Origin: an uncultured Pseudanabaenaceae cyanobacterium
GTDB lineage: Bacteria; Cyanobacteriota; Cyanobacteriia; PCC-9006; JAAUQQ01
DNA length: 64,000 nt
Reading direction: 5' to 3'
Assembly: GCA_938021205.1 (NCBI GenBank)
Contig: CALIGI010000058.1
Span: 13,169 to 77,168 of the forward strand
Positions 33,828 through 54,206 of the stretch are shown here, in pieces (position 1 is the stretch's first letter; every line of letters begins with the position of its first letter). The notes under the pieces are model-generated. The model was not told the origin of the DNA, searched no databases, and worked only from the letters and a program-made list of their open reading frames with translations. A program made the position numbers and the translations under genes.

Positions 33828-35321
33828 ATGGAAACGCAGCCTCTTCACGCAAGGGAGTCGCTAGACCTTGAGCTCAGCCAATACTTCGATTTACTTCGTC
33901 GTAAATGGCTTGTGCTTGCCCTCATTTGGGGGGGGGCCTTCGGCCTTGCGGTAGGAGCAGCTTTACTCAAAGCTCCCAGCTACCAAGCATCCTCGAAGGT
34001 TTTAGTGAAGGTCGACCAAACCGCTTCCCTCACCGGAATTGGTAAAGGGGTGGGAGATATAAATTCCATCGCGAAGAACCCCCTCAGTACGGAAATTGAA
34101 ATTATCCTGGCTGCACCCACCCTAGATCGGGTGATTGGCACATTAGATCTGAAAAATGACGAAGGGGAGTCCCTCACAGCCAAAGATCTGCGAAAGAATC
34201 TTGATGTCAGCGTTGCAGGTGGTGCTGATGTGATTGAGATGAGTTATGAAGCTAAGGATGCTCAACTGGCCGCTAATATCGTGGATGAGCTCTCCCGCGT
34301 CTACATCGAAAGCAATATTCTTGAAAATCAGCTCCAGACCTCTAAGGCTAGGCTCCTCACAGAAAAGCAGCTACCCGAAAGCGAACGTTTTGTTCAGCAA
34401 TCAGAAGCTTCCTTGCGAGACTTTAAGGAAAGTAATGGCATTGTTTCCCTCCAGGATGAAGCAAAGTCCGTTGTGATTGCTTTACAGGATATAGATAGCC
34501 AGGTTCTACAGGTGAGATCTTCTCTGGATGAGGTGGTGAGCACGGCGACTCAGTTGCGCGAAACCTTGGGATTAAATCTATCCCAGGCGATGCTTGCTAG
34601 TGATCTCAGCCAGTCCCCAGCGATCCAAGGAGTGATGCTAGATCTTCAGGCCCTAGAGCGCCAGAAAGCGATTAAGTTGGGCACTTATACGGGCCAGAGC
34701 CCTGTTATTCAGGTTTCCAGTGCCGAGGAGGAATCCCTCAAGCAGCTACTGTGGGAGGAAATGATCACGGTGGTCGGCAATCGCACTGAAGTCCCCGAGC
34801 GCTATTTACAAATGGGGGCGATGCGCCAGGAGCTGATTGCTCAGTTTGCCCAAGCTGAGGTCCAACGTCTAGGACTGGAAAATCGACTGCAAACTTTGGC
34901 AGAATATCGCGATCGCTATGTGAGCCGTGCGAACAGTCTTCCCAGTCTGGAGCAGCAAGAAAAGGAGTTGGAGCGTACTCAAGAAGTTGCCCGTCAACGT
35001 TATCAAGAGAATCTGCGTCGTCTGCGGGATTTGCAAGTGGCGGAGGAACAGTCCATTGGTAATGCGACTTTGCTGGAGCCTGCTGCGTTGCCTGATGAGC
35101 CCAACCGAACCAGTCAGCAAATCATTGTGGGTTTTGGAGGATTAGCGGGGGCGCTTCTGGCGGCAGGGGCGGCAGCGCTGATGGCCTTTGATGAGAGTAA
35201 TCGCGATCGCCGTCATGCCCAAGGTGGCGTTGTCGTGCCGTCGCCTGGACCCTCAAGTCAAGTGATTCCCCGAGGTAATGTTGCTCCCCCTGAAGGTGCT
35301 AATCCTGAAGGTGCATTCTAA
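33828..35321 (+). CDS. Polysaccharide co-polymerase (Wzz/GumC-like chain-length determinant, with no kinase domain).
   Basis: RRKWLVLALIWGGAFGLAV N-terminal TM, a long coiled-coil periplasmic region, and a second TM IIVGFGGLAGALLAAGAAALMAF near the C-terminus. Confidence 0.75.
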   Translation: METQPLHARESLDLELSQYFDLLRRKWLVLALIWGGAFGLAVGAALLKAPSYQASSKVLVKVDQTASLTGIGKGVGDINSIAKNPLSTEIEIILAAPTLDRVIGTLDLKNDEGESLTAKDLRKNLDVSVAGGADVIEMSYEAKDAQLAANIVDELSRVYIESNILENQLQTSKARLLTEKQLPESERFVQQSEASLRDFKESNGIVSLQDEAKSVVIALQDIDSQVLQVRSSLDEVVSTATQLRETLGLNLSQAMLASDLSQSPAIQGVMLDLQALERQKAIKLGTYTGQSPVIQVSSAEEESLKQLLWEEMITVVGNRTEVPERYLQMGAMRQELIAQFAQAEVQRLGLENRLQTLAEYRDRYVSRANSLPSLEQQEKELERTQEVARQRYQENLRRLRDLQVAEEQSIGNATLLEPAALPDEPNRTSQQIIVGFGGLAGALLAAGAAALMAFDESNRDRRHAQGGVVVPSPGPSSQVIPRGNVAPPEGANPEGAF

Positions 35322-38880: not shown

Positions 38881-40149
38881 TTGGGCTTGATCCACGCTTG
38901 GGTCTACCAACATGCTCCTTGGGTATCAGGACGAATAGTTTTGGTTACTTCATTTTCAACTAAGAAGAATAAAGCCCCTGTGATCGGAACGGTGTGCAGC
39001 AATGTCACGAACCTGGTTGTCCAAGCTGAACAGCAGCTAGATGGGCTCTATATTCCCACGACCCAGCCAGTTTCATTGCTCTCGAAAAATCCGTTTTTGA
39101 GCATTATCATCAATAACTATAATTATGCAGCTTTCCTCCGCCAAGCTATTGATAGTTGTCTCGCTCAGTGCTATGAGAACTTTGAGATCATTGTGGTGGA
39201 CGATGGCTCTGACGATGATTCCGCGCAGATTATTCGCAGCTATGGCGATTCCATCATCCCAGTGCTTAAGTCTAACGGGGGGCAAGCTTCTGCCATTAAT
39301 GCTGGCTTCGCGGTGAGTCAAGGTGAGATTATTGTTCTCCTGGATGCGGATGATTACCTGTTTGAACATGCACTTCGCACCATTGCAGCAGCTTGGTGCT
39401 CAGATAGCGCTGGGCCTGAAACGGTTCAAATTCAATGTCGTTTAACGCTCGTCGATCCTAAGGGTGAGGCCATCGATCTATATCCAGCACCGGAGATTAC
39501 TTTTGATCAAGGGGATGTGCGATCGCTCCTTCGCCAGCGTGGCCGTTACAGCACCACGGTCACCAGTGGAATTAGTTTTCATCGTCGTGTTCTGACGGAA
39601 ATTTTGCCCATTCCGGAATCAGATTTTCGTATTTCTGCCGATGGCTATTTGGTTACGGTGGCTCCTTTCTACGGCGCAGTGGGAGCCGTAGAGATTGCGG
39701 TAGGGGCTCGTCGCAAACATCAGAACAATTTCTGGGCACCCTTAGGCAATGCGGTGTGCTTATCCCATCTCCATCGTTCGATTCAGCATGACTTCCTCCG
39801 CTACCAGTATTTGAGTCAGATCATTGGAGAAGTAATCTCTCTAGAGCAGTTTGGTCTGGGTGATCACTTCCACTTAATGTCCCGCCTGCCCTCTAGTCGT
39901 CTATCTCCCCAACAGCACCCCTGTCCCGGGGATCAACCGGAGCAGCTTGCTCTGCGCGGTCTTGTATCGCTGTGGCATTTGCGCTCCTACAAGGCGCGGC
40001 GCAAGCTCATTCTCAGTGCTTGGTTCCTCTGGGTTGGCTTTGCGCCTAAGGCTTGGGTTCGTCCAGTGGTGGACTGGCTTCTCGTCAGTGGCTCTCGCCC
40101 CCAGCCCATTGACCGTTTGTCCAAGCTGCTACGACGCATCACGCGATAG
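38881..40149 (+). CDS. Glycosyltransferase family 2. The true start is probably downstream of the first ATG.
   Basis: LSIIINNYNYAAFLRQAIDSCLAQCYENFEIIVVDDGSDDDS...SNGGQASAINAGF...VLLDADD shows the GT-A DXD fold. Confidence 0.8.
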   Translation: MGLIHAWVYQHAPWVSGRIVLVTSFSTKKNKAPVIGTVCSNVTNLVVQAEQQLDGLYIPTTQPVSLLSKNPFLSIIINNYNYAAFLRQAIDSCLAQCYENFEIIVVDDGSDDDSAQIIRSYGDSIIPVLKSNGGQASAINAGFAVSQGEIIVLLDADDYLFEHALRTIAAAWCSDSAGPETVQIQCRLTLVDPKGEAIDLYPAPEITFDQGDVRSLLRQRGRYSTTVTSGISFHRRVLTEILPIPESDFRISADGYLVTVAPFYGAVGAVEIAVGARRKHQNNFWAPLGNAVCLSHLHRSIQHDFLRYQYLSQIIGEVISLEQFGLGDHFHLMSRLPSSRLSPQQHPCPGDQPEQLALRGLVSLWHLRSYKARRKLILSAWFLWVGFAPKAWVRPVVDWLLVSGSRPQPIDRLSKLLRRITR

Positions 40150-40241
40150 CAATGGCTTCACAAGGTGGAATCAGTTTGCCTTGGTGGGCTGTGCCCAGGT
40201 CTTTATCTATCTTTGCTGTGACGCTCCTTTAGCTCCTCTAT

Positions 40242-41336
40242 TTGCATTTCTCCGCCGCCATGGTTACCCAAGCAGCACCCAAACCTAAAATCCAACCGCC
40301 CCCCTCCCATCAGGCTGAAGATGCGGTCAATGCGCCCCAGCAGCTATTTCTCGCCTGGGTGCCATTTCAACGGCGGGCAGTGACGATGCAGTCCTACTTT
40401 GGCTATGAGTTGCACCATATCAGCCTTCGCTTTAAGCCAAAGTTTTTGCGCCCCTTCGAATATGTGATGAAAGCCTGGCAGAGTCTTTGGCTCATGCTGC
40501 ATCAACGGCCAGAGATTATCTGGGTGCAAATGCCTCCGGCTCCCCTACTGTATTTGGTCTTTGCCTACAAGTTGCTGGTTAATCCCCAGGTCAAGCTGGT
40601 TGCGGATTGCCATAATGCAACGTTCCGCGCTCCCTGGATTAAATTTCCTGCTGTTGTGGCCTTGCTCAACCGCTGTGATGCCGTCATCGTTCACAACCAG
40701 ATGGTGGCTTTGCAGGCCAAAGAGCTGGGGATTTCTCCGACCCATACCCAAGTTTTGCTGGATCGAGTTCAGCCTTTAAATTGTGGTGAGGGTTTGGCTG
40801 AATTGGCCCAGGGCTTGGGGCTAAAGACCCCCTGGTTTCTGATTCCCTGCTCCTTTAACGCTGATGAGCCCATTGCCGAAATTCTGGAGGCAGCCCGCCA
40901 GGCACCAGATCTGACCTTTGTTCTCACAGGCAATCCAGCCCGAGCCCAGGGTCGTCATGACTTGAGCAAGGCTACTACCAATGTCAAGTTTCCGGGCTTC
41001 CTTCCCGAGGGAGAGTTTAATACTTTGGTTTACAACGCGACGGCAGTGGTGGGTCTAACCAAGCTAGATGGCATTCAGCTGAGCGTTGCCAATGAGGCTT
41101 TGGGTTGCGATCGCCCCATGGTCCTGGCCCATACGAGCTTGCTCCAGCAACTGTTCCCTCGGGGGGCTGTTTATGTGGACCCCATGGATGCCAGGGATTT
41201 AGTGGCCGGTTGTCGACAGGCCCAAGCGGAAAGCGATCGCCTCACGACCGAAGTGATTTCGCTTAAGGCTGAGCGAGCTGCGCAATGGTTTCTCTCTGCT
41301 GCCCCCATTCGCCAGATCCTGTTTGACCAGTCTTAG
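40242..41336 (+). CDS. Glycosyltransferase family 1-like (GT-B).
   Basis: C-terminal half FPGFLPEGEFNTLVYNATAVVGLTKLDGIQLSVANEALGCDRPMV resembles the GT4 donor-binding region. The N-terminal half is divergent. Confidence 0.6.
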   Translation: MHFSAAMVTQAAPKPKIQPPPSHQAEDAVNAPQQLFLAWVPFQRRAVTMQSYFGYELHHISLRFKPKFLRPFEYVMKAWQSLWLMLHQRPEIIWVQMPPAPLLYLVFAYKLLVNPQVKLVADCHNATFRAPWIKFPAVVALLNRCDAVIVHNQMVALQAKELGISPTHTQVLLDRVQPLNCGEGLAELAQGLGLKTPWFLIPCSFNADEPIAEILEAARQAPDLTFVLTGNPARAQGRHDLSKATTNVKFPGFLPEGEFNTLVYNATAVVGLTKLDGIQLSVANEALGCDRPMVLAHTSLLQQLFPRGAVYVDPMDARDLVAGCRQAQAESDRLTTEVISLKAERAAQWFLSAAPIRQILFDQS

Positions 41337-41558
41337 CTGCTAGGTCTTGGGACTTGGATTGAATGTTTGGAGGACTGAAATGGGGAGCCTTTCCCCTTGC
41401 CAAAACTCAATCCCATTCCACCCATGACTGAGCCCAGTCTTCAAGGCTGGGTGTGAGCTTGCTGTGGGCTTTTTGAGACTAGGGCGGAGAGACTTTGCGC
41501 CTACCGAGACTTGTTTTTGAGAGGCATCTACCAAAATCCCTTCATTGCGATCTCCACT

Positions 41559-43271
41559 ATGAAACGTCGCGTTCTTGCCCTGGGTCTAGATGCTGCTGAC
41601 CCCACCTTAATGGAACCTTGGATGGACCAGGGCCTGCTGCCGAATCTCAACTTCCTGCGTCAAAACGGTGCCTACGGCCATCTTCGTACCCAAATCGGTC
41701 ACCAGGGCCAGCATGAGAACTTCTCCAATACGGAGCCTCTCTGGGTTATGGCCATGACGGGCTGCCTTCCCCACAAGACAGGCTTTTGGGACACGATTGA
41801 GTATGACCCTAACCATTACAGTATCAAGTTGGATTCGGTTTATGGGGGCTATGACTATGGGGAATATAAGCCCTTTTACGCTCTGGATAATTCCTGCACA
41901 GGCTCGCCTCGCGATCGCCTCAATGCAACCGTTTTTGACATTCCCGTCACTCGCGTTATCGAAGGCATTCGAGGCACCCAAATTACAGGCTGGGGTGGCC
42001 ACCATCCCTTCTATCCCAGTGAATCTAATCCCCCCGAAGCCCTGGAAATGATTCTACAAAAATTTGGTCCCAACCCGGTCTACCGTAAGGACAACGGCAA
42101 ATGGTGGGATCAAAAATATGGTGCTTGGATTCAACAGGCCCTACCCGCTAGCATTACCGCCCGTACTGCCATTGGCAAAGCTCTGGTCAAACGTCAGGAC
42201 TGGGACCTCTGCATGATCGGCTTTGGGGAAACCCATACCGCTGGTCATGATCTCTATGATCAAAGTCAGCCTGACCACCCCTTCTACCCATTTCGTCAAC
42301 CTAAAAACGGTGCTGACCCTCTACTCAAGGTCTATCAGCAAGTGGACGAAGCTTTGGGCAAAATCTTCTCAGCGGCCCCTGGAGATACCTACATCGTTAG
42401 CTATTCCCTCCATGGCATTGGCCCCAACCATACGGATTTGCTGAGCCTATTCTTTTTGGGTGAAGTGATGTATCGCTGGAATTTTCCTGGCCAAATCGGC
42501 TTTACCGATGGCGAGCTTTCCCAGCCTCCCGCTGAGCCCATTCGCCAACCCCAGCGCGGTGGCTGGAGCGATGAAATTTGGTGCCAGCTCGCTGATGATA
42601 ACGAGCTGAGACGCTGGTGGCGGCGGCATTGTCCCACTCGCTTCTGGCCCACCCAAGACAATGGCCTCACTTCTCCAGTTGGACTCAAACGTCAAGGCCA
42701 ATCCCAAAGCTGGATGCCGATCCTGGCCTATCGACATTGCTGGCCTAATATGCGTGCCTTTGCGCTCCCCGGCTTTGCTGATGGTCAAATCCGCATCAAT
42801 CTGCAGGGTCGCGAAGCCAATGGTCAGGTTGCCCCAGAAGACTACAATGCCACCTGTCATGAACTCATTGAAATGCTTCATGGGCTCAAGGACAGCCGCA
42901 GCGGCTTACCCCTCGTCAAAGCAGTTCAGCGTACGCGCGCTGGAGCTGATGATGAGAGCCATCGCCATCCCCATGCCGATCTCATGGTGATCTGGAATGA
43001 CTGTCCAACGGATGTGATTGAAAGCCCCCAGCTCGGTCGTATTGGCCCGGTCACCTACAACCGTCCCGGTGGCCATAGAGCCCGAGGTCATTTCATGGTC
43101 CAAGGTCCTGGAATAAAACCGGGCAGTCGCTTGCCAACGGGACAGGCCGTTGATGTTGCTGCCACGCTCCTGCACCTCTTGGGTGAAGATCAACCGGAGA
43201 ATTTTGATGGGCAACCTCTGCTCAGTCTAGATCCTAGCCACATCCCCGAACTGTCTCTCTCCGATGCCTAG
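41559..43271 (+). CDS. Alkaline-phosphatase-superfamily enzyme (type I phosphodiesterase/nucleotide pyrophosphatase-like). Start assigned to MKRRVLAL; the six-frame ORF starts at 41511.
   Basis: N-terminus VLALGLDAADPTLMEPWMDQGLLPNL...GAYG matches the metal-site opener of the AP superfamily. TGCLPHKTG is the putative nucleophile loop. Paralogous to 50686..52344. Confidence 0.65.
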   Translation: MKRRVLALGLDAADPTLMEPWMDQGLLPNLNFLRQNGAYGHLRTQIGHQGQHENFSNTEPLWVMAMTGCLPHKTGFWDTIEYDPNHYSIKLDSVYGGYDYGEYKPFYALDNSCTGSPRDRLNATVFDIPVTRVIEGIRGTQITGWGGHHPFYPSESNPPEALEMILQKFGPNPVYRKDNGKWWDQKYGAWIQQALPASITARTAIGKALVKRQDWDLCMIGFGETHTAGHDLYDQSQPDHPFYPFRQPKNGADPLLKVYQQVDEALGKIFSAAPGDTYIVSYSLHGIGPNHTDLLSLFFLGEVMYRWNFPGQIGFTDGELSQPPAEPIRQPQRGGWSDEIWCQLADDNELRRWWRRHCPTRFWPTQDNGLTSPVGLKRQGQSQSWMPILAYRHCWPNMRAFALPGFADGQIRINLQGREANGQVAPEDYNATCHELIEMLHGLKDSRSGLPLVKAVQRTRAGADDESHRHPHADLMVIWNDCPTDVIESPQLGRIGPVTYNRPGGHRARGHFMVQGPGIKPGSRLPTGQAVDVAATLLHLLGEDQPENFDGQPLLSLDPSHIPELSLSDA

Positions 43272-43390
43272 TCGGGCAACCTAGGGGCAACGGTCCCTGT
43301 TAGGTACGGTATTACATGGTATTACACAGTATTGCAACGACTGTTTGAGTCATTCATCGCATTGCCATCACACCCCTGTCTGGGTTTGCC

Positions 43391-44710
43391 ATGACCTTGC
43401 CTCTCATTTTTGTGCGCCTGGAAAAGGCCTTTACTGTTTCGGTGCTAATTCTGTATTCTGGTGGACCTTTCACGGTCTTCCTCTCCGGAGGATATAGCCA
43501 GGGTGAGCCTGGAAATGCTCCGGCGGATTATCCCATCATGAAGTTGGTGTTCATTTGCACTTACTGTATCTTTGCTGCTTTGCTGACTTGCCGTTGGCGA
43601 CAGACCCTAGAGACGCTATTGCGCGATCGCTTCACCCTTCTCTTGGTCGCCCTGGCCGCAGGTTCCTTTGCTTGGTCTTCGACCCCTGACGAAACCTTCG
43701 CGAAGAGTATTGCCTTTATTGGTACAACGCTGTTTGGCCTTTATCTCGCGGGACGCTACTCCCAGGAGGAGCAACTCCGACTCCTGGCGTGGGCCTTTGG
43801 GGGGATTGTCTGTCTCAGCTTTTTCTATGCTATTGCCTTGCCCAAGTATGGAATTATGGGCGGTACCCACACGGGAGACTGGCGCGGGATTTACACCCAT
43901 AAAAATACCTTGGGTAAGTTGATGGTCTTTAGTGTCGCGGTTTTTTTATTGCGATCGCTTCAGCCCAAACGGCCTCGTTCCCACGCCCGCTTTTGGTCCT
44001 TGATGGGCTTGATGGGGTCCGTAATGCTGATTGGTCTCTGCACCTCAAAGGGGGCCTTAATTAATGCGAGTGTTGTTATTGCGGCGATCGTGGCCTGCCT
44101 CGCCCTAAGTCGTTGGTCCATCTCCTTTCTGCTGCCCTGCCTCATCGGCAGCTTTGCCTTCACCCTGGGCAGCGGCATTTGGATTTCTCAACATCTCGCT
44201 GTCATCGCGAACCTGCTCAATAAAGACGTCACCCTGACGGGTCGCACAAAAATCTGGGCTCTGACCTTCGACAAGCTCGTCGAGCAGCCTTGGTTTGGCT
44301 ATGGCTATTACGGCTTCTGGCAAGGACTCGATAGCGAAGCCGGTGATATTTGGCGCATCTATCTCTGGGAGACGCCCAATGCTCACAACGGCTTCCTCGA
44401 TATTGCCATTCAGCTTGGCTTCATCGGTCTTTCTCTCTTCTTCGTCAGTCTCCTCTACCATGCCATTCTCAGTCTTATCCAGCTCCGCCAAAGTCAATCC
44501 GTCACCCATATCTGGCCTCTGGCCTTCATGGTTTACATGCTCATGGGTAACCTTGCGGAGAGTAGCCTTTTAGTGCCTAATGACCTGTTTTGGGTGTTCT
44601 ATGTCGCCCTGAGTCTCCAGCCTTACCAGCTGACCCAGACGCAACTTCAGCCCCGTGATCTGCCAGCCCCTGCAACCCAACAAAATTCTTTGGAGGGCTA
44701 CAGTTCATGA
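43391..44710 (+). CDS. O-antigen ligase / Wzy-like polymerase family integral membrane protein.
   Basis: About 11 TM helices with a large periplasmic loop near the C-terminus (Wzy_C-like: NAHNGFLDIAIQLGFIG). Confidence 0.7.
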   Translation: MTLPLIFVRLEKAFTVSVLILYSGGPFTVFLSGGYSQGEPGNAPADYPIMKLVFICTYCIFAALLTCRWRQTLETLLRDRFTLLLVALAAGSFAWSSTPDETFAKSIAFIGTTLFGLYLAGRYSQEEQLRLLAWAFGGIVCLSFFYAIALPKYGIMGGTHTGDWRGIYTHKNTLGKLMVFSVAVFLLRSLQPKRPRSHARFWSLMGLMGSVMLIGLCTSKGALINASVVIAAIVACLALSRWSISFLLPCLIGSFAFTLGSGIWISQHLAVIANLLNKDVTLTGRTKIWALTFDKLVEQPWFGYGYYGFWQGLDSEAGDIWRIYLWETPNAHNGFLDIAIQLGFIGLSLFFVSLLYHAILSLIQLRQSQSVTHIWPLAFMVYMLMGNLAESSLLVPNDLFWVFYVALSLQPYQLTQTQLQPRDLPAPATQQNSLEGYSS

Positions 44711-45993
44711 AATCCCTCCTCGGTAAGCTCAATAAATTGCGGAATAACAGCACTGCCCAGAGCACCCTCTGGATTCTAGGGGCTCGCCTGCTGCGAACTT
44801 TGCTTCAATCTGCCTACTTCTTGCTTGTGGCTCGTGCCCTAGGAGCCCAGCAATACGGCACCTTTATTGGCGTGATGGCTCTGACGAAGGTCTTACTTCC
44901 CTTTGCAGCCTGGGGGGCTGCCCAGGTGCTGACCAAGCAAGTGGCGCGTAATCGAGAACATTTTCCCCAAGCCTGGGGCAATGCCCTTTATCTGGTTACC
45001 ACCTTTTCCCTCTTGAGCTTTGCCTTGCTCATCCCTGCCGGGGAAATCATCTTGCCCAACGTTGCCCATCTTGGCCTTTGGGTCAGCATTGGTATTGCCG
45101 ATCTTTTCTTCTCCCGTGTCCTCGATGTAGCCCTTAAGGTTTTTTTGGCCGTAGAGCTGGCTCACAGAAATGCTCAGCTCCATGTTCTACTCAGTATTAA
45201 CAGTGTTCTCGCGGCCCTCTGCCTAAGCTTGTTCATTCCTGAACCCACGGCTTTAATTTGGGGACAGTTTTATCTCCTCAGCCGCATTGCGACTGCTGCG
45301 GTGGCCCTCTTTCTCGTCTGGCGCGATATCGGTCCACCTCGCCTGGCTCTCAAGCAAATCCACCCCGAACTCACCCAGGGCTTTTACTTTGCTGTAGACC
45401 TCTCCGCTCAAAGCTTCTCTACCGATCTAGATAAAACGATGCTGGCTCGCATGGCCACTCTGCAGGCCACCGGTATCTATGCTGCGGCCTATCGCATTCT
45501 TGATGTGGCCATGGCCCCAGTCTTATCTGTCATGTCTGTGTCCTATGCCAAGTTCTTTAAAGAAGGAGCCGCTGGTATCCAAGGCAGTTTTAGCGTTGCC
45601 AAGCGACTAGTTCCCCTCGCAGGCACTTATGGTGCCATCGCGACGGTCGGTCTTTGGTTCGTAGCACCGCTGGTTCCCTCTGTTTTGGGACCGGAATATG
45701 AGCCTGCGATCGCGGCCTTACGTTGGCTTTCCCCCATTCTGCTGTTTAAATCCTTGCAATACTTCGCCGCTGATACGCTCACAGGTGCGGGCCTGCAGGG
45801 TTACCGCACGTTTTTGCAAGTGGTCATGGCCATCTTGAACGGTCTAGGAAATGCCTGGCTTATCCCACTGTATTCATGGAAGGGAGCCGCCTGGGCTAGC
45901 CTCGCGACAGATGGAGTCCTAACCTTAAGCCTCTGGGTATTAGTCGCCTTTTTCCACCATCGAGCTCGCAGTACTCGGCCTGTAAAGGCTTAA
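44707..45993 (+). CDS. Wzx-type oligosaccharide flippase (MOP/PST family).
   Basis: Twelve or more TM helices. N-terminus LWILGARLLRTLLQSAYFLLVARALGAQQYGTF is typical of the PST family. The ATGA overlap with the upstream gene suggests translational coupling. Confidence 0.8.
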   Translation: MKSLLGKLNKLRNNSTAQSTLWILGARLLRTLLQSAYFLLVARALGAQQYGTFIGVMALTKVLLPFAAWGAAQVLTKQVARNREHFPQAWGNALYLVTTFSLLSFALLIPAGEIILPNVAHLGLWVSIGIADLFFSRVLDVALKVFLAVELAHRNAQLHVLLSINSVLAALCLSLFIPEPTALIWGQFYLLSRIATAAVALFLVWRDIGPPRLALKQIHPELTQGFYFAVDLSAQSFSTDLDKTMLARMATLQATGIYAAAYRILDVAMAPVLSVMSVSYAKFFKEGAAGIQGSFSVAKRLVPLAGTYGAIATVGLWFVAPLVPSVLGPEYEPAIAALRWLSPILLFKSLQYFAADTLTGAGLQGYRTFLQVVMAILNGLGNAWLIPLYSWKGAAWASLATDGVLTLSLWVLVAFFHHRARSTRPVKA

Positions 45994-46102
45994 TAAGCCG
46001 TCGCTTCCCCCCTGAAACGGGGGATTTGAATACCATCTCTAGGGAGAAGGGGGGGAAGCCTGAACCGATAACGCTATTGTCGTCTGTCTGATATTCAAGC
46101 TC

Positions 46103-47113
46103 TTAAGGAGCCGTGCGCCTTACACCGTAGAGCGTCTTTACGAGGCGGCGATAACCCGCTTCCCCAAAGAACTTCATCATGTTAATGGCTAAACTAAGTC
46201 GCCAGTATTCCTTGGTTTGCCACAGACCAGGGTTGTATTCCACAGCCTGAGCCCGCATCTCCTTGGCGGCAGCGATATCCTTCTCAACACATTGAAGTGG
46301 CTTCCAGGCTAGATCCAAATAAACATTGCCGTAGGCACGCTTTTTTAATGCCTCTAGGTTGGGCACTTTCGCTTCCTCAGCGGCGTTAAAAGCTTTATCC
46401 AGCACAATATTGAAACTACGTTCCATTTGACGCCAATTCCGAGAGGCACTGTTCTCATGTTGACGGTAGCCTACTAGGGGTTGGGGCACAGCCACAAAGG
46501 GATGATGCAGTGCCAGGCGTAGCCACATATCCCAGTCCTCTACAGAGGAACCTAGATTCTGGTCAAACATGCCGAGGGAATCGAAATAACAGCGCTTCAC
46601 CACTGGCGTGCTGCCGCAACCCACAAAATTGAACAAAACTAAGTCTGACCAAACTTCTCCTTCTGCTTCGCCTTTGAAGATGCGTCCCGTTGGAACGCCT
46701 TGGGCATCGACTAGGGCAGACCAGGTATAGGCCAAGGCAGCCTCTGGCGATCGCAACAATGCTGCCATTTGTAGTTCTAGCTTCGCTGAATCCCAAAGGT
46801 CATCGGCATCCAAAAAAGCGACATAATCAGCTCGAGACTCGCGAATTCCGGTATTGCGAGCCCCAGCCAAGCCTCGATTTTCCTGGGATACCAGCCGAAA
46901 GCGAGGGTCATCTTGAGACTGGGCCCAATCTCGAATATGGTCCGTGCTGCCATCATCCACAACGATCACTTCAAAATCTGTGAAAGTCTGTTGCCACAAA
47001 GATTTTAAGGTCTCAGGTAAATAGACCATCGCGTTGTAAGCAGGAATCACTATTGAAACAGCAGGTTTCGCGATCGCAGACTGAACCATTGGGTTAGAAC
47101 TTTTTTCCGACAT
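46103..47113 (-). CDS. Glycosyltransferase family 2.
   Basis: VSIVIPAYNAMVYLPETLKSLWQQTFTDFEVIVVDDGSTD...LDADD. About 55% identical by eye to 49191..50180. Confidence 0.85.
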   Translation of the reverse strand: MSEKSSNPMVQSAIAKPAVSIVIPAYNAMVYLPETLKSLWQQTFTDFEVIVVDDGSTDHIRDWAQSQDDPRFRLVSQENRGLAGARNTGIRESRADYVAFLDADDLWDSAKLELQMAALLRSPEAALAYTWSALVDAQGVPTGRIFKGEAEGEVWSDLVLFNFVGCGSTPVVKRCYFDSLGMFDQNLGSSVEDWDMWLRLALHHPFVAVPQPLVGYRQHENSASRNWRQMERSFNIVLDKAFNAAEEAKVPNLEALKKRAYGNVYLDLAWKPLQCVEKDIAAAKEMRAQAVEYNPGLWQTKEYWRLSLAINMMKFFGEAGYRRLVKTLYGVRRTAP

Positions 47114-49190: not shown

Positions 49191-50180
49191 TTATCCTTGG
49201 AGAACCAAACGACGTAAGCGGTAAATCAACGCTAGCAATTGCCCATAAGTCTGGTCACCTAACAACTTCATTACTATCGCTGTCGCCTTCAAACGCCAAT
49301 AATCTCGTGAAAAACGAAGAGAGGGATCATGGTTTAAAGCAGCCTGCACAAGCTCCTTCGACTTCGCAAAATTTTTGGTTGTACTCAATAATGGCTGCCA
49401 AGCGAGGGACAGTTTGATCCGTCCATAGCCTTGCTCTTTAATCTGTTCCAGCTCTTCTGCTTTAATATCCTCTGGAGGATTTTTAAAGGCTTTCTCGAAC
49501 AAGATCTCTGCACTACGAAGCATCGCATCCCAGTTTTTAGATGCGCTATTAGGGAGCTGTCGATAGCCAACTAAGGGATGCTTAATGACCCTAAATTCAT
49601 AATTCAGGGCAAGCCGGAGCCACATGTCCAGATCTTCCATGTAGGAGCCCAGGTTCTCATCAAAGCAACCTGCCTGTTCAAAACAAGCTCGACGAATGAG
49701 AGGCGTACTGCCACAGCCAACAAAATTTCGGTGAATCAAGTCTCTCCAAACCCACCCCTCTTCGGTACTTTCTAGAAAACGACCTGTGGGCTTACCCGCT
49801 TGATCAATTAGAGCTAGCCAAGTATAAACCAGACCAACAGTAGAGCTTTCATCGAGAACAGTAACTTGGCGACTGAGCTTGTCAACCTCCCATAAATCAT
49901 CAGCATCAAGCAAGGCTAAGTACTCGCCCTTCGCTTCTGCGATCGCCGTATTACGGGCTCCAGCTAACCCGCGATTGACCTGGGAAACTAGACGCACTCG
50001 CTGATCTGTGACCTCAGTGCGATACCAGTCTTTGATCTGATCGGAGCTACCATCGTCGACAATGATGACTTCATAATCCGTGAAGTCTTGGGCTAGAACA
50101 CTTGCCAATGTCTGAGGCAAATAATCCATCGCGTTGTAGGCAGGGATTAATACCGATACCTTCGGAAGCAGCTCAGCCAT
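49191..50180 (-). CDS. Glycosyltransferase family 2, paralog of 46103..47113.
   Basis: VSVLIPAYNAMDYLPQTLASVLAQDFTDYEVIIVDDGSSD...LDADD...FVGCGSTP, collinear with the other GT2. Confidence 0.85.
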   Translation of the reverse strand: MAELLPKVSVLIPAYNAMDYLPQTLASVLAQDFTDYEVIIVDDGSSDQIKDWYRTEVTDQRVRLVSQVNRGLAGARNTAIAEAKGEYLALLDADDLWEVDKLSRQVTVLDESSTVGLVYTWLALIDQAGKPTGRFLESTEEGWVWRDLIHRNFVGCGSTPLIRRACFEQAGCFDENLGSYMEDLDMWLRLALNYEFRVIKHPLVGYRQLPNSASKNWDAMLRSAEILFEKAFKNPPEDIKAEELEQIKEQGYGRIKLSLAWQPLLSTTKNFAKSKELVQAALNHDPSLRFSRDYWRLKATAIVMKLLGDQTYGQLLALIYRLRRLVLQG

Positions 50181-50685: not shown

Positions 50686-52344
50686 CTAGCGAGTCGCGAG
50701 CGCGGCGGCGGGCACAGCCTGCAAGAGGCTGTGCCCTTCCAAATGGTTTGGCTTTGGAGCGTTCATTAAGTCCAAAATAGTAGGAGCTAAATCCAGAGCA
50801 TGAGCCTTAACTACATCAGAACCCGGCTGGATGCGATCGTCTTTCAAAAACACAAATCCCCGAGGTGTATGACTGCCGGCACGCTGATAGGGAGCAGGGC
50901 CTATTTGACCCAAAGAATCGCTTTCAACGCAGTCTGTCAGCTCAGTTTCATTCCACATCACAATCAAATCTGCATCGGGCATTCCTAGCGCATTTAAATT
51001 TTCAGTGGTACGTGTCCGGATGATGTGGTCCACGATTGGTTTTCCTGTCTTCACACTTCGCAAAGATTCAATTTGAGTGATAACCTCATCGCATACTGAA
51101 TCGTAATCTTCCCGTGCAACACAGCCATTTGGCTCGCGGCCCTGAAGGTTAATACGAATGTAGCCCTCTGAAAAGCTAGGCAGGGCAAAGGCTTTCATCT
51201 TGTGCCAGGCCGGCGCGTACCAGCTTACGGGCTGCCAGTCAAAACTCCCACCCTGATTTTGCAATTGATAAGGCGAGACAAAATCCCCTTTTGAGGACAG
51301 CCCTAGGCGATCTAAAAGACCTGCATAAATGCGGTGGAGCTTGGTTGGAGCTACAGATCGTATCCAGCGAGTGACTGGATTGGGATCATGTTTTTGGGCC
51401 CACAGATCTCGATAGGAACGCTGCTGTTGACGCCAAGCCGACTGACTTGAGGCTGCTCCAAATCCCACCTTGCCGGGGAAATTCCACCGGTACATCGCCT
51501 CACCTAGGAAAAAAGTACTAGTTAAGTCTAGATTGTTGGCCTGCATTCCATGGGCAGAAAAGACAATGACCGAAGCATTCTCAGGGGCAGCAGCCAAAAT
51601 CTCTCCAATAGATTCATCAATTTTCTTATAGGTCTCTAACAGATAATTTGTTGAAGTATCTCCTTCGCGGCGATGTACAGGATGCTCTGGGTCACCCAAG
51701 TGTAAGAGACAGTGCCCCGCAGAATGGGTCTCGCTGAAAATGGTCAGAAAGAGATTCCAATCATCTTGTTGGAGCAGATCTCTGCAAATTGCAGAACGTC
51801 GGCGAATCCCCTCTTGCAATTCTCCATGGAGGCGAGTTACCTGGGCTGGACTATAGATATTGGCATGGTCATGGCCAAAAGCCGGATGTTCACCGTGGCG
51901 TTGAATGATCTCTTGAAGCTTAGTTGCAGGCAAAGAATGACTTGGGGTTTGAGGAGAATGAGCCCCCCAGCCTAAAACTTGTATACCATTAGCATCAGGG
52001 GCTAGAGGTGCCTGGGGTATATCGAAAACGGAAACCTTATAATCCTTGCCTAGGTCATAAAAAGGACCATAATCGCAAAAATCATAAGCACCAACCGCAT
52101 CAACTCGGTAGGTACCTTCTTTTAGCTTGACAGGTCCCCAGTACCCAGTAGTACTGGGGGAGCAGCCTGTCAAAAAAGTCGTCCAAGGTGTCTCAGCGCG
52201 ATAGGAAGAATAATTGTTGAGGCGTCCATACGCTCCAGATTGCTTTAGTGCAGCTAAGTTCTTAAGTAGACCTTGCTCAATGCATTCTTCTATGAACTGA
52301 GGCTCAGCTGCATCCAAGCCAATAGCAATAACAGTTTTTGTCAT
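50686..52344 (-). CDS. Alkaline-phosphatase-superfamily enzyme, paralog of 41559..43271. Start assigned to MTKTVIAIGLD; the six-frame ORF extends to 52374.
   Basis: VIAIGLDAAEPQFIEECIEQGLLKNL...GAYG and TGCSPSTTGYWG. Shared FFLGE(V/A)MYRWNFPG block with its paralog. Confidence 0.65.
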   Translation of the reverse strand: MTKTVIAIGLDAAEPQFIEECIEQGLLKNLAALKQSGAYGRLNNYSSYRAETPWTTFLTGCSPSTTGYWGPVKLKEGTYRVDAVGAYDFCDYGPFYDLGKDYKVSVFDIPQAPLAPDANGIQVLGWGAHSPQTPSHSLPATKLQEIIQRHGEHPAFGHDHANIYSPAQVTRLHGELQEGIRRRSAICRDLLQQDDWNLFLTIFSETHSAGHCLLHLGDPEHPVHRREGDTSTNYLLETYKKIDESIGEILAAAPENASVIVFSAHGMQANNLDLTSTFFLGEAMYRWNFPGKVGFGAASSQSAWRQQQRSYRDLWAQKHDPNPVTRWIRSVAPTKLHRIYAGLLDRLGLSSKGDFVSPYQLQNQGGSFDWQPVSWYAPAWHKMKAFALPSFSEGYIRINLQGREPNGCVAREDYDSVCDEVITQIESLRSVKTGKPIVDHIIRTRTTENLNALGMPDADLIVMWNETELTDCVESDSLGQIGPAPYQRAGSHTPRGFVFLKDDRIQPGSDVVKAHALDLAPTILDLMNAPKPNHLEGHSLLQAVPAAALATR

Positions 52345-52748
52345 AGTAGCCCCAACGGTTAGTTCGACTAGCAATAATGTAACGGCATCATCTCTTCTCT
52401 AAATCGTCTCAGCTTCTACTAAGAACTCATTCTTGGAGATAAATCAACAAGCTTGATGGATCTACAAGGGGAAGCAGTACGATTCCCAGTGCTTTTAAGA
52501 CTATTCGGGATAAATTTTACACTAGTTGATGCTAGTACACTGATCTAACATCAACTCGTGAGCTGTGGGTTTAGCCTAAGTCTCTCGACTGAAGTAGATG
52601 CAATATGTATGCTTCCCTATTATCCATCCTACAAACAGAGATGCCCTCTCAGGCTTTGTAGGCTTTACAATCTCTTTGTAGAAGGGATGAAAGCTTAAAG
52701 AAGTCACCATTACGCTGCCTACATGACATTCTGAGACCTAGATCTCTT

Positions 52749-54206
52749 TCAAGATTTGGCAATATGCACCATCTCTGAAGCTTCTTGGGTATTTTGCCAA
52801 TCCCAACCTGCCACTGCAAATAGGACCCACCAGTAGAAAAACAACATTGTGTGGTCCCAAATATTCTCTGTTAACATTCCGAATAGCAAGGCCAGTAGCA
52901 TAACTATCATTACATAGCAGAGATTCTTTTGAGGAGTCGTGGAGTTGGGGGAGCGGAGCAGGCTGCTTAAGCGATAGAACTGAGCTATAAAAAACACCAT
53001 TATTCCGCTAAAGCCAACAATTCCCTGCTCGAAAATCCAACGGACATAATCATTGTGAGGCTCTAAATCATTGGAGCTTAGTGAAGCGCTAAGCCCTATG
53101 CCATGTCCAAACCACCGGGCCTGCTGCCATCGAGTTAGGTAGTCTGTCCATTGGGCAATACGCCAGTTGAAACTGTTGTAGTCACTCTTCGACAAAATAA
53201 TAGCTCTGGATGCATCGATGTCAGGATTGAGGAGCGGTGTCTGTGCAATTGAGGCCAAGCGTTCTTGTCCAAACTCAGAACTGCCAAACAGCGCCACAAC
53301 CACGCCAAACAATAGGAGCCCAAGGAAGAACTTAGAAAAAGAAATATTGCGCATCGCCATGCCAAGGATCAGGATTGCCAACATCCCTAAACTAAATAGC
53401 GCCTTCGTTGTGACGTAGAACAAACCCAGAACTGCGAGTATGCCAATCCAAACCCAGCGCTTGCCGCGACTCGCTAGAAGCTTCCAGTAGGTCAAACCGA
53501 TAAAAAAGAACAGGAATGTCGCAAAGCTATTCGGGTGACCAATCGTTCCTCGAATTCTAAGTCCAACGTCAGGTCCGGGCCCCCGTAAGGTGCTAACGAG
53601 AGGAGATATTTCAGTGGGAAGCGCAGTAGGGATAACCATCTGCAGCAAAGCCACAATCAAAGGGCATAGCAGTGAAAGCAGTAGAAGAGTAGCCAGTTTC
53701 TCAGGCCTTATAAGCCCTTTGAATTGCATGATCAGGATATAGACCAAAAACCAAGAGCCTAAACGTACGAACTCACGAATAGATTCTCCAGACAAAGCAC
53801 TACTCCCCCCCAGTCCCCCCAGCATGAGCAGAACAACCCAAACTCCTTGAAAGGCACACCAACCGGCAAAGAAGAAGAGGAATGGATCGGTATGGATTGT
53901 CTCCCGACGCAGCAGCTTGATAACCACATATCCGATCGCCAAGGCATCAAGCCCTACAGCAAAGAGAGCAGGCAACTGGATTGCAGAGAACGCGTCTATG
54001 GTGCTCCGCAAAATGAGAAGCGCCACAATGAAATAATCAAAACGACGGATACAAGCGATCGCGCCGACCACTCCTAAGGACAAAACCACGGCCCCAAATG
54101 GGTCAAGACCCGCCACAAGCCCAGTGACTAAGCCAATCAGACAGAACAGCACCGTCACAAGCCCAGCAATCGCGAAATTCTTAAACTTCAGTGTTTGTAA
54201 GGCCAT
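52749..54206 (-). CDS. Second O-antigen ligase / Wzy-like polymerase family membrane protein.
   Basis: About 12 TM helices and a C-terminal periplasmic loop with a HNDYVRWIFEQGIVG (Wzy_C-like) motif. Confidence 0.65.
   Translation of the reverse strand: MALQTLKFKNFAIAGLVTVLFCLIGLVTGLVAGLDPFGAVVLSLGVVGAIACIRRFDYFIVALLILRSTIDAFSAIQLPALFAVGLDALAIGYVVIKLLRRETIHTDPFLFFFAGWCAFQGVWVVLLMLGGLGGSSALSGESIREFVRLGSWFLVYILIMQFKGLIRPEKLATLLLLSLLCPLIVALLQMVIPTALPTEISPLVSTLRGPGPDVGLRIRGTIGHPNSFATFLFFFIGLTYWKLLASRGKRWVWIGILAVLGLFYVTTKALFSLGMLAILILGMAMRNISFSKFFLGLLLFGVVVALFGSSEFGQERLASIAQTPLLNPDIDASRAIILSKSDYNSFNWRIAQWTDYLTRWQQARWFGHGIGLSASLSSNDLEPHNDYVRWIFEQGIVGFSGIMVFFIAQFYRLSSLLRSPNSTTPQKNLCYVMIVMLLALLFGMLTENIWDHTMLFFYWWVLFAVAGWDWQNTQEASEMVHIAKS

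What the first reader, a model, noticed from the sequence alone, without database searches (positions are those of the whole stretch)
41559..43271. AP-superfamily enzymes with a near-sulfatase Cys-x-Pro loop inside a glycan locus (copy 1)
This roughly 570-aa protein opens with the G-LD-A..P metal-ligand motif of the alkaline phosphatase superfamily (type I phosphodiesterase/NPP-like). Where sulfatases place the formylglycine Cys (C-x-P-x-R), it carries TGCLPHKTG: Cys-x-Pro is kept but the Arg is replaced by Lys. It sits directly upstream of a Wzy/Wzx pair. A dedicated AP-superfamily enzyme co-operonic with polymerase and flippase suggests a substituent-transfer or substituent-removal step on the repeat unit or polymer, such as a phospho- or sulfo-ester. 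No characterised Wzy-pathway component does this.
Basis: partly seen in the sequence, partly recalled or inferred. Interest (0 to 1): 0.7.

Follow-up and report, generated by a model that had tools for sequence, protein, structure and literature searches.

The report
Cytoplasmic NPP-like enzyme in polysaccharide loci
The gene encodes a soluble alkaline-phosphatase-superfamily enzyme of unknown substrate that many cyanobacteria keep next to their polysaccharide polymerase, flippase and glycosyltransferase genes, but the "sulfatase-like cysteine" that drew attention is not at the catalytic position.

Summary

The "C-x-P-x-K" is mis-registered. Cys69 lies in the shared T-G-x-x-P-x-x-x-G motif, 11 residues after the nucleophile column, which holds Thr58 (T-E-P). 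Pro and Lys vary freely. Cys is Val or Leu in some clade members and mostly Arg in the wider family. The window has no FGE, anSME or sulfotransferase gene.

What holds up is the context. Of 85 homologous genes in 80 cyanobacterial loci, 70 have a same-strand GT2, Wzy, Wzx or PCP gene within 400 bp. A ~30%-identical relative in an unclassified metagenome contig sits in a Bac_transf-Wzx-GT4-AP-Wzy operon, and three relatives are fused to a GT2 domain.

The protein has no signal peptide or TM segment. Its metal site is non-canonical: H-x-x-x-H replaces D-x-x-x-H, and the Asp of D-H-G is lost. The paralogue (copy 2) clade has Ala at the nucleophile column in 118 of 118 members. No literature on the family was found. 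It is an uncharacterised, GT-coupled, cytoplasmic NPP-fold enzyme, and its substrate is unknown.

The parts
41559..43271 (+). AP-superfamily / NPP-fold protein, copy 1 (570 aa), soluble and cytoplasmic
41583..41603 (+). G-L-D11-A-A-D-P: first-strand Asp metal ligand of the AP superfamily
   Evidence: D11 is conserved in 61/62 and in 118/120 + 117/118 of the two clades. It aligns with 'cLDGcEP' of PhnA.
41730..41738 (+). T58-E59-P60: predicted nucleophile Thr at the N-terminus of helix 58-67, followed by the highly conserved Glu59
   Evidence: Helix boundaries. The column aligns with Thr64 of PhnA (wild-type and T64A entries differ exactly there) and with the Thr of Xac NPP 'sLTFPNH'. It is T/S in 120/120 of the copy-1 clade.
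41757..41783 (+). T67-G68-C69-L-P71-H-K73-T-G75: the shared AP-superfamily 'TG-x-x-P-x-x-x-G' turn after the nucleophile helix.
   Evidence: The Cys is clade-specific (119/120 and 105/118) but is R/Q/H/K/V elsewhere. Pro and Lys are variable.
42228..42251 (+). E224-T-H226-T-A-G-H230-D: replaces the canonical D-x-x-x-H metal-site-1 motif (Asp changed to His)
   Evidence: E224 and H226 are invariant in 62/62; H230 is H 48 / E 14. The correspondence to NPP 'D-x-S-G-H' is inferred from motif spacing and was not printed by a tool.
42405..42422 (+). S-L284-H285-G-I-G: replaces the canonical D-H-G metal-site-2 motif (Asp lost)
   Evidence: 'fsLHGm' aligns with 'sDHGM' of Xac NPP, ENPP4 and PhnA, and with 'DHG' of iPGM and sulfatase. 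Position 284 is V/L/A/I, with Asp at 284 in only 4 of ~410 family sequences.
42789..42815 (+). I-R412-I-N414-L-Q-G-R418-E: family signature with invariant Arg/Asn/Arg
   Evidence: R412, N414 and R418 are invariant in 62/62. This stretch served as the search pattern. Its role (anion binding or structural) is unknown.
43062..43076 (+). R502-P-G-G-H506: last His metal ligand
   Evidence: H506 is invariant in 62/62. Its position corresponds to the C-terminal His ligand of NPP (inference from fold order).
40242..41336 (+). GT4-like glycosyltransferase directly upstream (222-bp gap)
   Evidence: Weak Pfam GT4/GT1 hits. Syntenic in L006-L008.
43391..44710 (+). Wzy-type polymerase (Wzy_C), 119 bp downstream
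   Evidence: PF04932, E 1.1e-12.
44707..45993 (+). Wzx-type flippase, overlapping the Wzy stop by 4 bp
   Evidence: PF01943, E 5.6e-16.
46103..47113 (-). GT2 glycosyltransferase (GT2a), paralogue of GT2b
   Evidence: PF00535 / PF10111. 52% identical to GT2b.
49191..50180 (-). GT2 glycosyltransferase (GT2b), directly downstream of copy 2 on the minus strand
   Evidence: PF00535 / PF10111. The AP-GT2 pairing recurs in 39/85 genes as an immediate neighbour.
50686..52344 (-). AP-family copy 2 (552 aa from the ATG that matches P0271; the ORF extends to a TTG at 52374)
   Evidence: PF01663, E 1.5e-14. Ala at the nucleophile column, clade-wide 118/118.
52749..54206 (-). Second Wzy-type polymerase, upstream of copy 2 on the minus strand
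   Evidence: PF04932, E 4.5e-10.

Best explanation
Copy 1 is a soluble, cytoplasmic, metal-dependent enzyme with the nucleotide pyrophosphatase/phosphodiesterase (NPP) fold of the alkaline-phosphatase superfamily. It belongs to a large, generically annotated family ('predicted AlkP superfamily phosphohydrolase/phosphomutase'). The cyanobacterial clades of this family are dedicated accessories of Wzx/Wzy polysaccharide gene clusters.

Shown:
- the fold;
- the absence of export signals;
- Thr58, not Cys69, at the nucleophile position;
- a modified two-site metal centre, with D11/T58/H285 and H226/H230/H506, both canonical Asp ligands replaced, and Glu59 and Glu224 conserved nearby;
- conserved adjacency to GT2, Wzy, Wzx and PCP genes, plus natural fusions to GT2 domains.

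Inferred:
- It acts at the cytoplasmic face of the membrane together with a GT-A glycosyltransferase, on a phosphodiester- or diphosphate-containing substrate of repeat-unit assembly, before Wzx flipping.
- My preferred version is a Thr58-mediated two-step (ping-pong) phosphoryl-group transfer that installs or trims a phospho-linked substituent on the undecaprenyl-diphosphate-linked repeat unit.
- The close second is hydrolysis of the nucleotide-sugar donor or the NDP by-product of the partner GT.

Cys69 is a clade-specific residue of the turn after the nucleophile helix. It is most likely structural and is not a formylglycine precursor.
For: - Family: PF01663 in 27/29 clade members and in copy 2. 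The broad-family profile hits PhnA at E 6e-7, and ENPP4 and Xac NPP at E 5e-5 to 5e-4.
- Nucleophile register. T/S in 120/120 of the copy-1 clade.
- Metal motifs.
- Cytoplasmic location: no hydrophobic segment, and strand 1 starts at residue 5.
- Context: Stanieria Wzc-AP-GT2-Wzy-Wzx. Mojavia Bac_transf-GT2-AP-Wzy-Wzx. Leptolyngbyaceae AP-GT2. Of 85 genes in 80 loci, 70 have a same-strand GT2/Wzy/Wzx/PCP neighbour within 400 bp, and 62 have a GT2 within 5 kb.
- Distant relatives: one in a Bac_transf-Wzx-GT4-AP-Wzy operon with overlapping codons and one in a Wzm/Wzt locus.
- Fusions: AP-GT2 fusions in both orders.
- Duplication: AP and GT2 are duplicated together in the window.
Against: - No substrate is identified, and nothing here shows that phosphate or any other substituent is present in the polymer.
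- No donor-synthesis genes (CDP-glycerol, CDP-choline, phosphonate, PAPS) recur in the loci inspected.
- The nucleophile column is not conserved in the wider family: A 21 / S 15 / T 12 of 62. Of 172 broader-family sequences, 69 have no Ser/Thr at column 58 or 60. So covalent Thr catalysis may not be the ancestral mechanism, and the family could work without a covalent intermediate or even be non-catalytic.
- Two canonical Asp ligands are missing, so metal content is uncertain.
- The GT2 domains fused to AP (PF13704 type) are not specifically similar to the neighbouring GT2 in the window.
- Copy 1 itself does not reach any Pfam threshold.
Confidence: 0.4

Rival explanations
1. Sulfatase-like enzyme whose Cys69 (C-x-P-x-K) is converted to formylglycine and removes or transfers sulfate on the polymer.
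Against: - Cys69 is 11 residues C-terminal of the nucleophile column and sits after the T-G turn.
- Pro and Lys are variable.
- The Cys is V/L or R/Q/H/K elsewhere in the family.
- PF00884 matches only 2/29 members, at E 0.038.
- There is no Arg at +4.
- No FGE or anSME is in the window.
- The protein is cytoplasmic, whereas polymer desulfation would be extracytoplasmic.
Confidence: 0.03
2. Helper of the partner glycosyltransferase. It hydrolyses the NDP by-product or surplus nucleotide-sugar (NDP-sugar to NMP + sugar-1-P), relieving product inhibition or gating precursor supply, as ENPP3 does for Golgi transferases.
For: The NPP fold, and NPPs cleave nucleotide sugars; ENPP3-UDP-GlcNAc complexes are among the Foldseek hits. 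Tight pairing and fusion with GT2 domains. Cytoplasmic location. No need for a dedicated donor-synthesis gene.
Against: - Bacterial cytoplasm recycles NDPs through general metabolism.
- This does not explain why only one GT per locus is paired, or why the gene so often abuts Wzy or PCP rather than a GT (23 and 22 of 85).
- The nucleotide-binding residues of NPPs could not be checked.
Confidence: 0.17
3. A non-covalent or non-catalytic AP-fold protein. It would be either a binding or scaffold subunit that recognises the anionic diphosphate-lipid or glycan and organises the GT/Wzy/PCP machinery (as the AP-fold domain of PbgA/YejM binds lipid rather than hydrolysing it), or an enzyme that uses metal-activated water or acceptor without a Thr intermediate.
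For: - The nucleophile column is Ala in 118/118 of the copy-2 clade and in about a third of the wider family.
- Of 172 broader-family sequences, 69 have no Ser/Thr at column 58 or 60.
- Two Asp ligands are lost.
- There is an invariant Arg/Asn cluster R306, R412, N414, R418.
- The gene is adjacent to core assembly genes rather than to variable tailoring genes.
Against: - D11, E224, H226, H230, H285 and H506 are strictly kept in both cyanobacterial clades, which argues for a functional metal site.
- The copy-1 clade keeps Thr/Ser in 120/120.
- In the copy-2 model a conserved Thr two residues on sits at the helix N-terminus, so a shifted nucleophile is possible.
Confidence: 0.17
4. Phosphatase that resets the neighbouring PCP/BY-kinase (a Wzb analogue).
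For: A PCP (Wzc/Wzz) gene lies directly upstream with a 60-90 bp gap in 22 of 85 cases. The protein is cytoplasmic. No LMW-PTP was seen in the loci inspected.
Against: - The window's Wzc has no C-terminal Tyr cluster.
- Many adjacent PCPs are kinase-less Wzz types.
- Pairing and fusion with GT2 are not explained.
- The gene also occurs in an ABC-transporter-type locus without a PCP.
Confidence: 0.06
5. Ordinary phosphate-scavenging nucleotide pyrophosphatase or alkaline phosphatase that merely happens to lie in the locus.
For: Generic database names such as 'nucleotide pyrophosphatase' and 'alkaline phosphatase family protein'.
Against: - No signal peptide or lipobox.
- Non-canonical metal ligands.
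- Context conserved in 70/85 genes across cyanobacterial orders and in an uncultured non-cyanobacterial-looking contig.
- Only weak sequence similarity to any solved NPP.
Confidence: 0.04

Closest known systems
Bacterial and animal nucleotide pyrophosphatase/phosphodiesterases (Xanthomonas NPP, ENPP1/3/4/6/7; Pfam PF01663)
   Different: - Cytoplasmic, with no signal peptide.
- About 190 extra residues in two insertions.
- D-x-x-x-H becomes H-x-x-x-H, and D-H-G becomes [V/L/A]-H-G.
- The Asn that binds the phosphoryl oxygen is not conserved.
- The nucleophile is not conserved across the wider family.
- Sequence identity is 13-19%, and copy 1 is below Pfam thresholds.
Phosphonoacetate hydrolase PhnA (PDB 3SZY / 1EI6)
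   Same: The closest solved protein by sequence profile (E 6e-7 over residues 5-105). It is also a cytoplasmic NPP-like enzyme with a Thr nucleophile.
Type I (formylglycine) sulfatases, Pfam PF00884
   Different: The nucleophile column is Thr, not Cys/Ser. There is no C/S-x-P/A-x-R, no D-D pair and no D-N/Q Ca2+ ligands, and the HMM is not matched.
Extracytoplasmic phospho-substituent transferases of the AP superfamily (LtaS, EptA/MCR-1, OpgB, BcsG)
   Same: These are AP-fold enzymes that decorate glycans or lipids with phospho-linked groups through a Thr/Ser covalent intermediate. That is the kind of chemistry proposed here.

Membership tests
Alkaline-phosphatase superfamily (fold level) | Core alpha/beta sandwich with a metal-binding Asp at the end of strand 1 and the nucleophile position at the N-terminus of the following helix | tested here: met
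NPP / Pfam PF01663 | Scores above the PF01663 gathering threshold | tested here: inconclusive
   Copy 1 alone has no hit at E<=1. However, 27 of 29 aligned clade members (best E 6e-17) and copy 2 (54.8 bits against a cutoff of 23) do hit.
NPP / Pfam PF01663 | Thr nucleophile in T-x-P at the helix N-terminus | tested here: met
   T58-E-P aligns with the nucleophile Thr of PhnA and Xac NPP. It is T/S in 120/120 of the copy-1 clade. It is not met in the copy-2 clade (Ala 118/118) or in much of the wider family.
NPP / Pfam PF01663 | Canonical six-ligand bimetallo site: D, D-x-x-x-H, D-H, H | tested here: not met
   The first motif is H226-x-x-x-H230. The 'D-H-G' is L284-H285-G, with V/L/A/I family-wide. 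D11, H285 and H506 are retained.
NPP / Pfam PF01663 | Secreted or ecto-enzyme (signal peptide or membrane anchor) | tested here: not met
   No hydrophobic segment (maximum KD19 0.81). Residues 5-10 form core strand 1.
Type I sulfatase / Pfam PF00884 | C/S-x-P/A-x-R motif with the Cys/Ser at the nucleophile position (helix N-terminus) | tested here: not met
   That position is Thr58. Cys69 is 11 residues later, after the T-G. There is no Arg at +4, and Pro/Lys are variable.
Type I sulfatase / Pfam PF00884 | Matches the sulfatase HMM | tested here: not met
   Copy 1 has no hit. Only 2/29 clade members hit, at E 0.038.
Type I sulfatase / Pfam PF00884 | A formylglycine-generating maturase (FGE or anSME) is available | tested here: inconclusive
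   None among window ORFs of 150 aa or more. The rest of the genome is not available.
LtaS / EptA-type phospho-substituent transferases | N-terminal polytopic membrane domain with an extracytoplasmic AP-fold domain | tested here: not met
Cofactor-independent phosphomutases (iPGM, phosphopentomutase) | Ser/Thr nucleophile, Mn2 site with D-x-x-x-H and D-H, and an inserted transferase/cap domain that holds the substrate during intramolecular transfer | tested here: inconclusive

The most novel reading that the evidence does not exclude
The family is a previously unrecognised catalytic step of Wzx/Wzy (and some ABC-type) polysaccharide assembly. It would be a cytoplasmic AP-fold transferase that works with a GT-A glycosyltransferase. 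It would use its Thr, or in Ala-type paralogues a metal-activated acceptor, to put an anionic phospho- or sulfo-group on the lipid-linked repeat unit from a ubiquitous donor such as a nucleotide diphosphate compound or APS/PAPS. That would be a new class of glycan-decorating enzyme and a mechanistically divergent branch of the AP superfamily, with an all-His metal site 1 and an optional nucleophile.
Probability: 0.2. Interest if true: 0.8.

Novelty: new variant of a known kind. Interest (0 to 1): 0.5.

Why it matters
Cyanobacterial extracellular polysaccharides are unusually anionic and complex, and the enzymes behind many of their decorations are unknown. This gene is one of the most consistently co-located non-GT, non-transport genes in their Wzx/Wzy clusters. 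Relatives of it turn up in other phyla (named Acidimicrobiia and Alphaproteobacteria MAG relatives), and an unclassified metagenome contig carries one in a Wzx/Wzy operon. Even so, it has only a generic annotation, and I found no paper on it.

Establishing its substrate would add a step to the Wzy-pathway scheme. For enzymologists it offers a natural series within one fold: a Thr-type clade, an Ala-type clade, His-for-Asp metal ligands and a lost Asp. That series tests how far the AP-superfamily mechanism can drift.

Tried and rejected
- Formylglycine reading: rejected on register, motif variability, HMM results and lack of a maturase.
- NCBIfam and PADLOC scans of both copies: no hits.
- AFDB50 fold search: the library was not available, so no annotated AlphaFold neighbours were obtained.
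- Sequence search of PDB with copy 1 alone: only a marginal C-terminal LtaS hit. The clade profile gave E>=0.004. Only the broad profile A2 reached PhnA and the NPPs.
- Literature searches (COG3379; cyanobacteria + Wzy + phosphatase/pyrophosphatase/phosphodiesterase terms; PF01663 + polysaccharide; hps): nothing on this gene. The synechan paper, the Actinoplanes wps paper and the Nodularia P-stimulon paper were checked and do not mention it.
- Context look-ups that gave nothing: P0088 is not on record. The P0217 and P0251 contigs are too short. P0409 is not in a glycan locus.
- Tested whether the GT2 fused to AP equals the neighbouring GT2: no significant BLAST similarity, so the fusion supports only generic GT-A coupling.
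- Wzc-phosphatase idea: weakened by the absence of a Tyr cluster.
- Promoter/terminator scan of 40000-46200: counts are at shuffle level and there is no intergenic terminator between the AP gene and Wzy. This is compatible with co-transcription but does not prove it.
- Model coordinates are not exposed by the tools, so I could not measure how far Cys69 lies from the metal site.
Full report
**1. The observation**

The ORF at 41559-43271 (+) is real. It encodes 570 aa from an ATG. An in-frame TTG 48 nt upstream is unlikely to be the start, because all homologues begin at the equivalent MK..V.A.GLDA. 'GLDAADP' (residues 9-15) and 'TGCLPHKTG' (residues 67-75) are present as quoted. Downstream on the same strand lie a Wzy_C protein (43391-44710, 119-bp gap) and a Polysacc_synt flippase (44707-45993, 4-bp overlap). 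A consensus scan found no terminator between them, and its counts were at the level of shuffled sequence.

The surrounding 30 kb is one large polysaccharide locus. It contains:
- an MraY/WecA-type transferase and a Wzz;
- GT1 and Alg14/Alg13-like genes, a GT2 and a GT4-like gene;
- AP copy 1, Wzy, Wzx and a GT2 on the minus strand;
- a second Wzx, a second GT2 (-), AP copy 2 (-), a second Wzy (-), a methyltransferase (-), Wzc (-) and two GT1 genes (-).

The two AP copies are 38% identical.

**2. What the protein is**

Copy 1 alone matches no Pfam or NCBIfam model. Copy 2 matches PF01663 (E 1.5e-14), and so do 27 of 29 aligned clade members. The sulfatase model PF00884 is touched by only 2 of 29, at E 0.038.

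**3. The cysteine**

Alignments to PhnA and Xac NPP fix the register. The wild-type and T64A PhnA entries differ at exactly one aligned column, and that column is the nucleophile. In copy 1 it is Thr58, in T58-E-P, at the first residue of helix 58-67 of the model. In sulfatases the C-x-P-x-R cysteine occupies this same position; that point rests on established knowledge of the superfamily.

Cys69 instead follows the conserved T67-G68 at the C-terminal end of that helix. It lies in the T-G-x-x-P-x-x-x-G turn that NPPs (TGLYPESHG), PhnA (TGSPPAVHG) and sulfatases (LTGR.P...G) all share.

Conservation supports this reading.
- Across 87 cyanobacterial family ORFs the Cys is kept in 83. It is Val or Leu in 4.
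- Among the 81 ORFs that match T/S-G-C, the rest of the motif varies: C-x-P-x-K 48, C-x-A-x-T 13, C-x-P-x-T 8, C-x-A-x-K 7 and C-x-S-x-K 3.
- In the wider family the column is Arg 18, Cys 14, Gln 7, His 6 and Lys 4 of 62.

No FGE, anSME, sulfotransferase or PAPS gene is among the window's ORFs of 150 aa or more. The 'near-sulfatase loop' is therefore a mis-registration of a generic superfamily turn. The Cys is a clade-specific residue and is probably structural. I could not measure its distance to the metal site, because model coordinates are not exposed.

**4. An atypical active site**

'fs[V/L/A]HGm' aligns with 'sDHGM' of NPPs and PhnA, and with 'DHG' of iPGM and sulfatases. His285 is therefore kept, but the adjacent Asp ligand is missing, with only 4 Asp exceptions among ~410 family sequences. 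By motif spacing (my inference), E224-T-H226-T-A-G-H230 replaces D-x-x-G-H, so the Asp of metal site 1 is a His.

In a 62-sequence alignment at 29-46% identity the following conservation is seen:
- Invariant: E224, H226, D263, R306, R412, N414, R418, D474 and H506.
- D11 is 61/62, E59 48/62, H230 is H48/E14, and H285 is H37/E9/D5.
- The nucleophile column is not conserved: Ala 21, Ser 15, Thr 12.

Aligning all 410 full-length family proteins collected here to one HMM gives a clean split. The copy-1 clade has Thr 117 / Ser 3 of 120. The copy-2 clade has Ala in 118 of 118. D11, E59, E224, H226, H230, H285 and H506 are essentially fixed in both.

In an AF2 model of copy 2 (pLDDT 84; about 75 in this region) the helix starts two residues later, at the conserved Thr of 'A-E-T-P-W'. 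Copy 2 may therefore use a register-shifted Thr. Even so, 69 of 172 broader-family sequences have no Ser/Thr at either position.

**5. Location**

There is no signal peptide and no TM segment. The maximum 19-residue hydropathy is 0.81, and core strand 1, which carries the metal-ligand Asp, begins at residue 5. The protein is cytoplasmic, so whatever it does happens before Wzx flipping.

**6. Context beyond the window**

Homologues are abundant: 389 and 1162 clusters for the two copies, and 13,579 50%-identity representatives at E<=1e-3 for the profile. They carry only generic names.

Individual look-ups show:
- Wzc-AP-GT2-Wzy-Wzx in Stanieria;
- Bac_transf-GT2-AP-Wzy-Wzx in Mojavia;
- AP-GT2 in a Leptolyngbyaceae genome;
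- AP-GT1 and AP-acetyltransferase-GT1-Wza...GT2-Wzx-GT2 for copy-2-type genes.

A scan of 185,579 species genomes found 479 places. The best 80 are all cyanobacteria, and the nearest (85-86% identity, syntenic, with both copies) are Pseudanabaenaceae MAGs. I called ORFs in these 80 loci and labelled them by BLAST to the window's proteins. Of 85 AP genes, 70 have a same-strand GT2 (39), Wzy (23), PCP (22) or Wzx (6) neighbour within 400 bp. A GT2 lies within 5 kb of 62.

Relatives at about 30% identity sit in two other glycan loci on unclassified metagenome contigs. One is a Bac_transf-Wzx-GT4-AP-Wzy-GT4 operon with overlapping codons. The other is a Wzm/Wzt ABC-type glycan locus. A third relative is not in a glycan locus.

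Three family members are natural fusions with a GT2 domain (PF13704), in both orders. That GT2 is not specifically similar to the window's neighbouring GT2. In the window, AP and GT2 are duplicated as a pair (38% and 52% identity), whereas the two Wzy and the two Wzx proteins are only 22-26% identical.

**7. Mechanism**

Shown:
- an NPP fold;
- cytoplasmic location;
- a retained but re-engineered metal centre;
- Thr at the nucleophile position in copy 1;
- persistent genetic coupling to GT-A transferases and to Wzy/Wzx/PCP.

Inferred: it acts on a phosphodiester- or diphosphate-bearing intermediate of repeat-unit assembly.

I rank the options as follows.
- First: a Thr58-mediated transfer or trimming of a phospho-linked substituent on the lipid-linked repeat unit. 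This explains the specific pairing with one GT2 per module.
- Second: hydrolysis of the NDP or NDP-sugar of the partner GT.
- Third: a non-covalent or scaffold role, prompted by the Ala-type clade.
- Weak: a Wzc-phosphatase role. The window's Wzc has no Tyr cluster, and many neighbouring PCPs lack kinase domains.
- Very unlikely: an ordinary secreted phosphate-scavenging NPP, or a formylglycine sulfatase.

None of the loci inspected carries recurrent donor-synthesis genes. Any donor is therefore likely to be a ubiquitous metabolite.

**8. Comparison with known systems, and novelty**

The protein works most like an NPP or PhnA-type enzyme. It fails two of four defining NPP features (the canonical ligand set and export), and by itself it is below the Pfam threshold. 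It fails all tested defining features of sulfatases and of LtaS/EptA-type transferases.

Seven literature searches and three papers checked gave nothing on this gene. I file it as a new variant of a known kind: a cytoplasmic, GT-coupled NPP-fold family with a divergent active site and unknown substrate.

Interest is moderate at 0.5. The flagged hook is wrong. The underlying family is nonetheless a conserved, uncharacterised part of Wzx/Wzy loci and is mechanistically odd for its superfamily.

Noticed in passing
window 50686-52374 (-), and clade members P0271-P0388: The paralogue (copy 2) belongs to a separate, equally widespread cyanobacterial clade. That clade has Ala at the canonical nucleophile column in 118/118 members ('Y-R-A-E-T-P-W') while keeping all His/Asp/Glu metal-site residues. 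In its AF2 model the helix starts at the Thr two residues later.
   Followed up: partly
P0187 (1000 aa), P0226 (1020 aa), P0428 (838 aa): These are natural fusions of this AP-family domain with a GT2 (PF13704) glycosyltransferase domain, in both domain orders. About 300 residues of P0187 and P0226 have no Pfam match.
   Followed up: partly
window 46103-47113 (-) and 49191-50180 (-): The two GT2 genes are 52% identical paralogues, and the two AP genes are 38% identical. The two Wzy and the two Wzx proteins are only 22-26% identical. So an AP+GT2 pair appears to have been duplicated or recruited twice into two head-to-head Wzx/Wzy modules.
   Followed up: partly
window 55235-55531 (-) and 55575-55931 (-): Two short, very hydrophobic ORFs (98 and 118 aa) lie between the methyltransferase and Wzc. 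They look like pieces of a membrane acyltransferase and may be a split or decayed O-acetyltransferase gene.
   Followed up: no
window 56505-58718 (-): The Wzc-like PCP (Wzz + GNVR + P-loop ATPase domains, 737 aa) ends without the Tyr-rich tail typical of BY-kinases. The other PCP (33828-35321, 497 aa) has no kinase domain at all.
   Followed up: partly
L001 18408-20363, L005 18990-20870, L003 19651-20829, L092 18098-19366: Glycoside hydrolases (GH9 with CBM3, GH9, GH10, and a weak cellulase family hit (PF00150)) recur at the edges of AP-containing polysaccharide loci in unrelated genomes. This hints at beta-glucan-like backbones or polymer trimming.
   Followed up: no
window 4888-6258 (-), 6795-7877 (+), 30925-32046 (+): A LytR-CpsA-Psr protein, a ManC-like sugar-1-phosphate nucleotidyltransferase and an MraY/WecA-family (PF00953) transferase lie upstream of the locus. 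They are possible ligase, precursor and priming functions for the same polymer.
   Followed up: no
window 41559-43271 versus P0002-P0005: Copy 1 itself gives no Pfam hit even at E<=1, although its 69-86% identical orthologues carry a precomputed PF01663 hit. This is a reminder that the family sits at the edge of the model.
   Followed up: no
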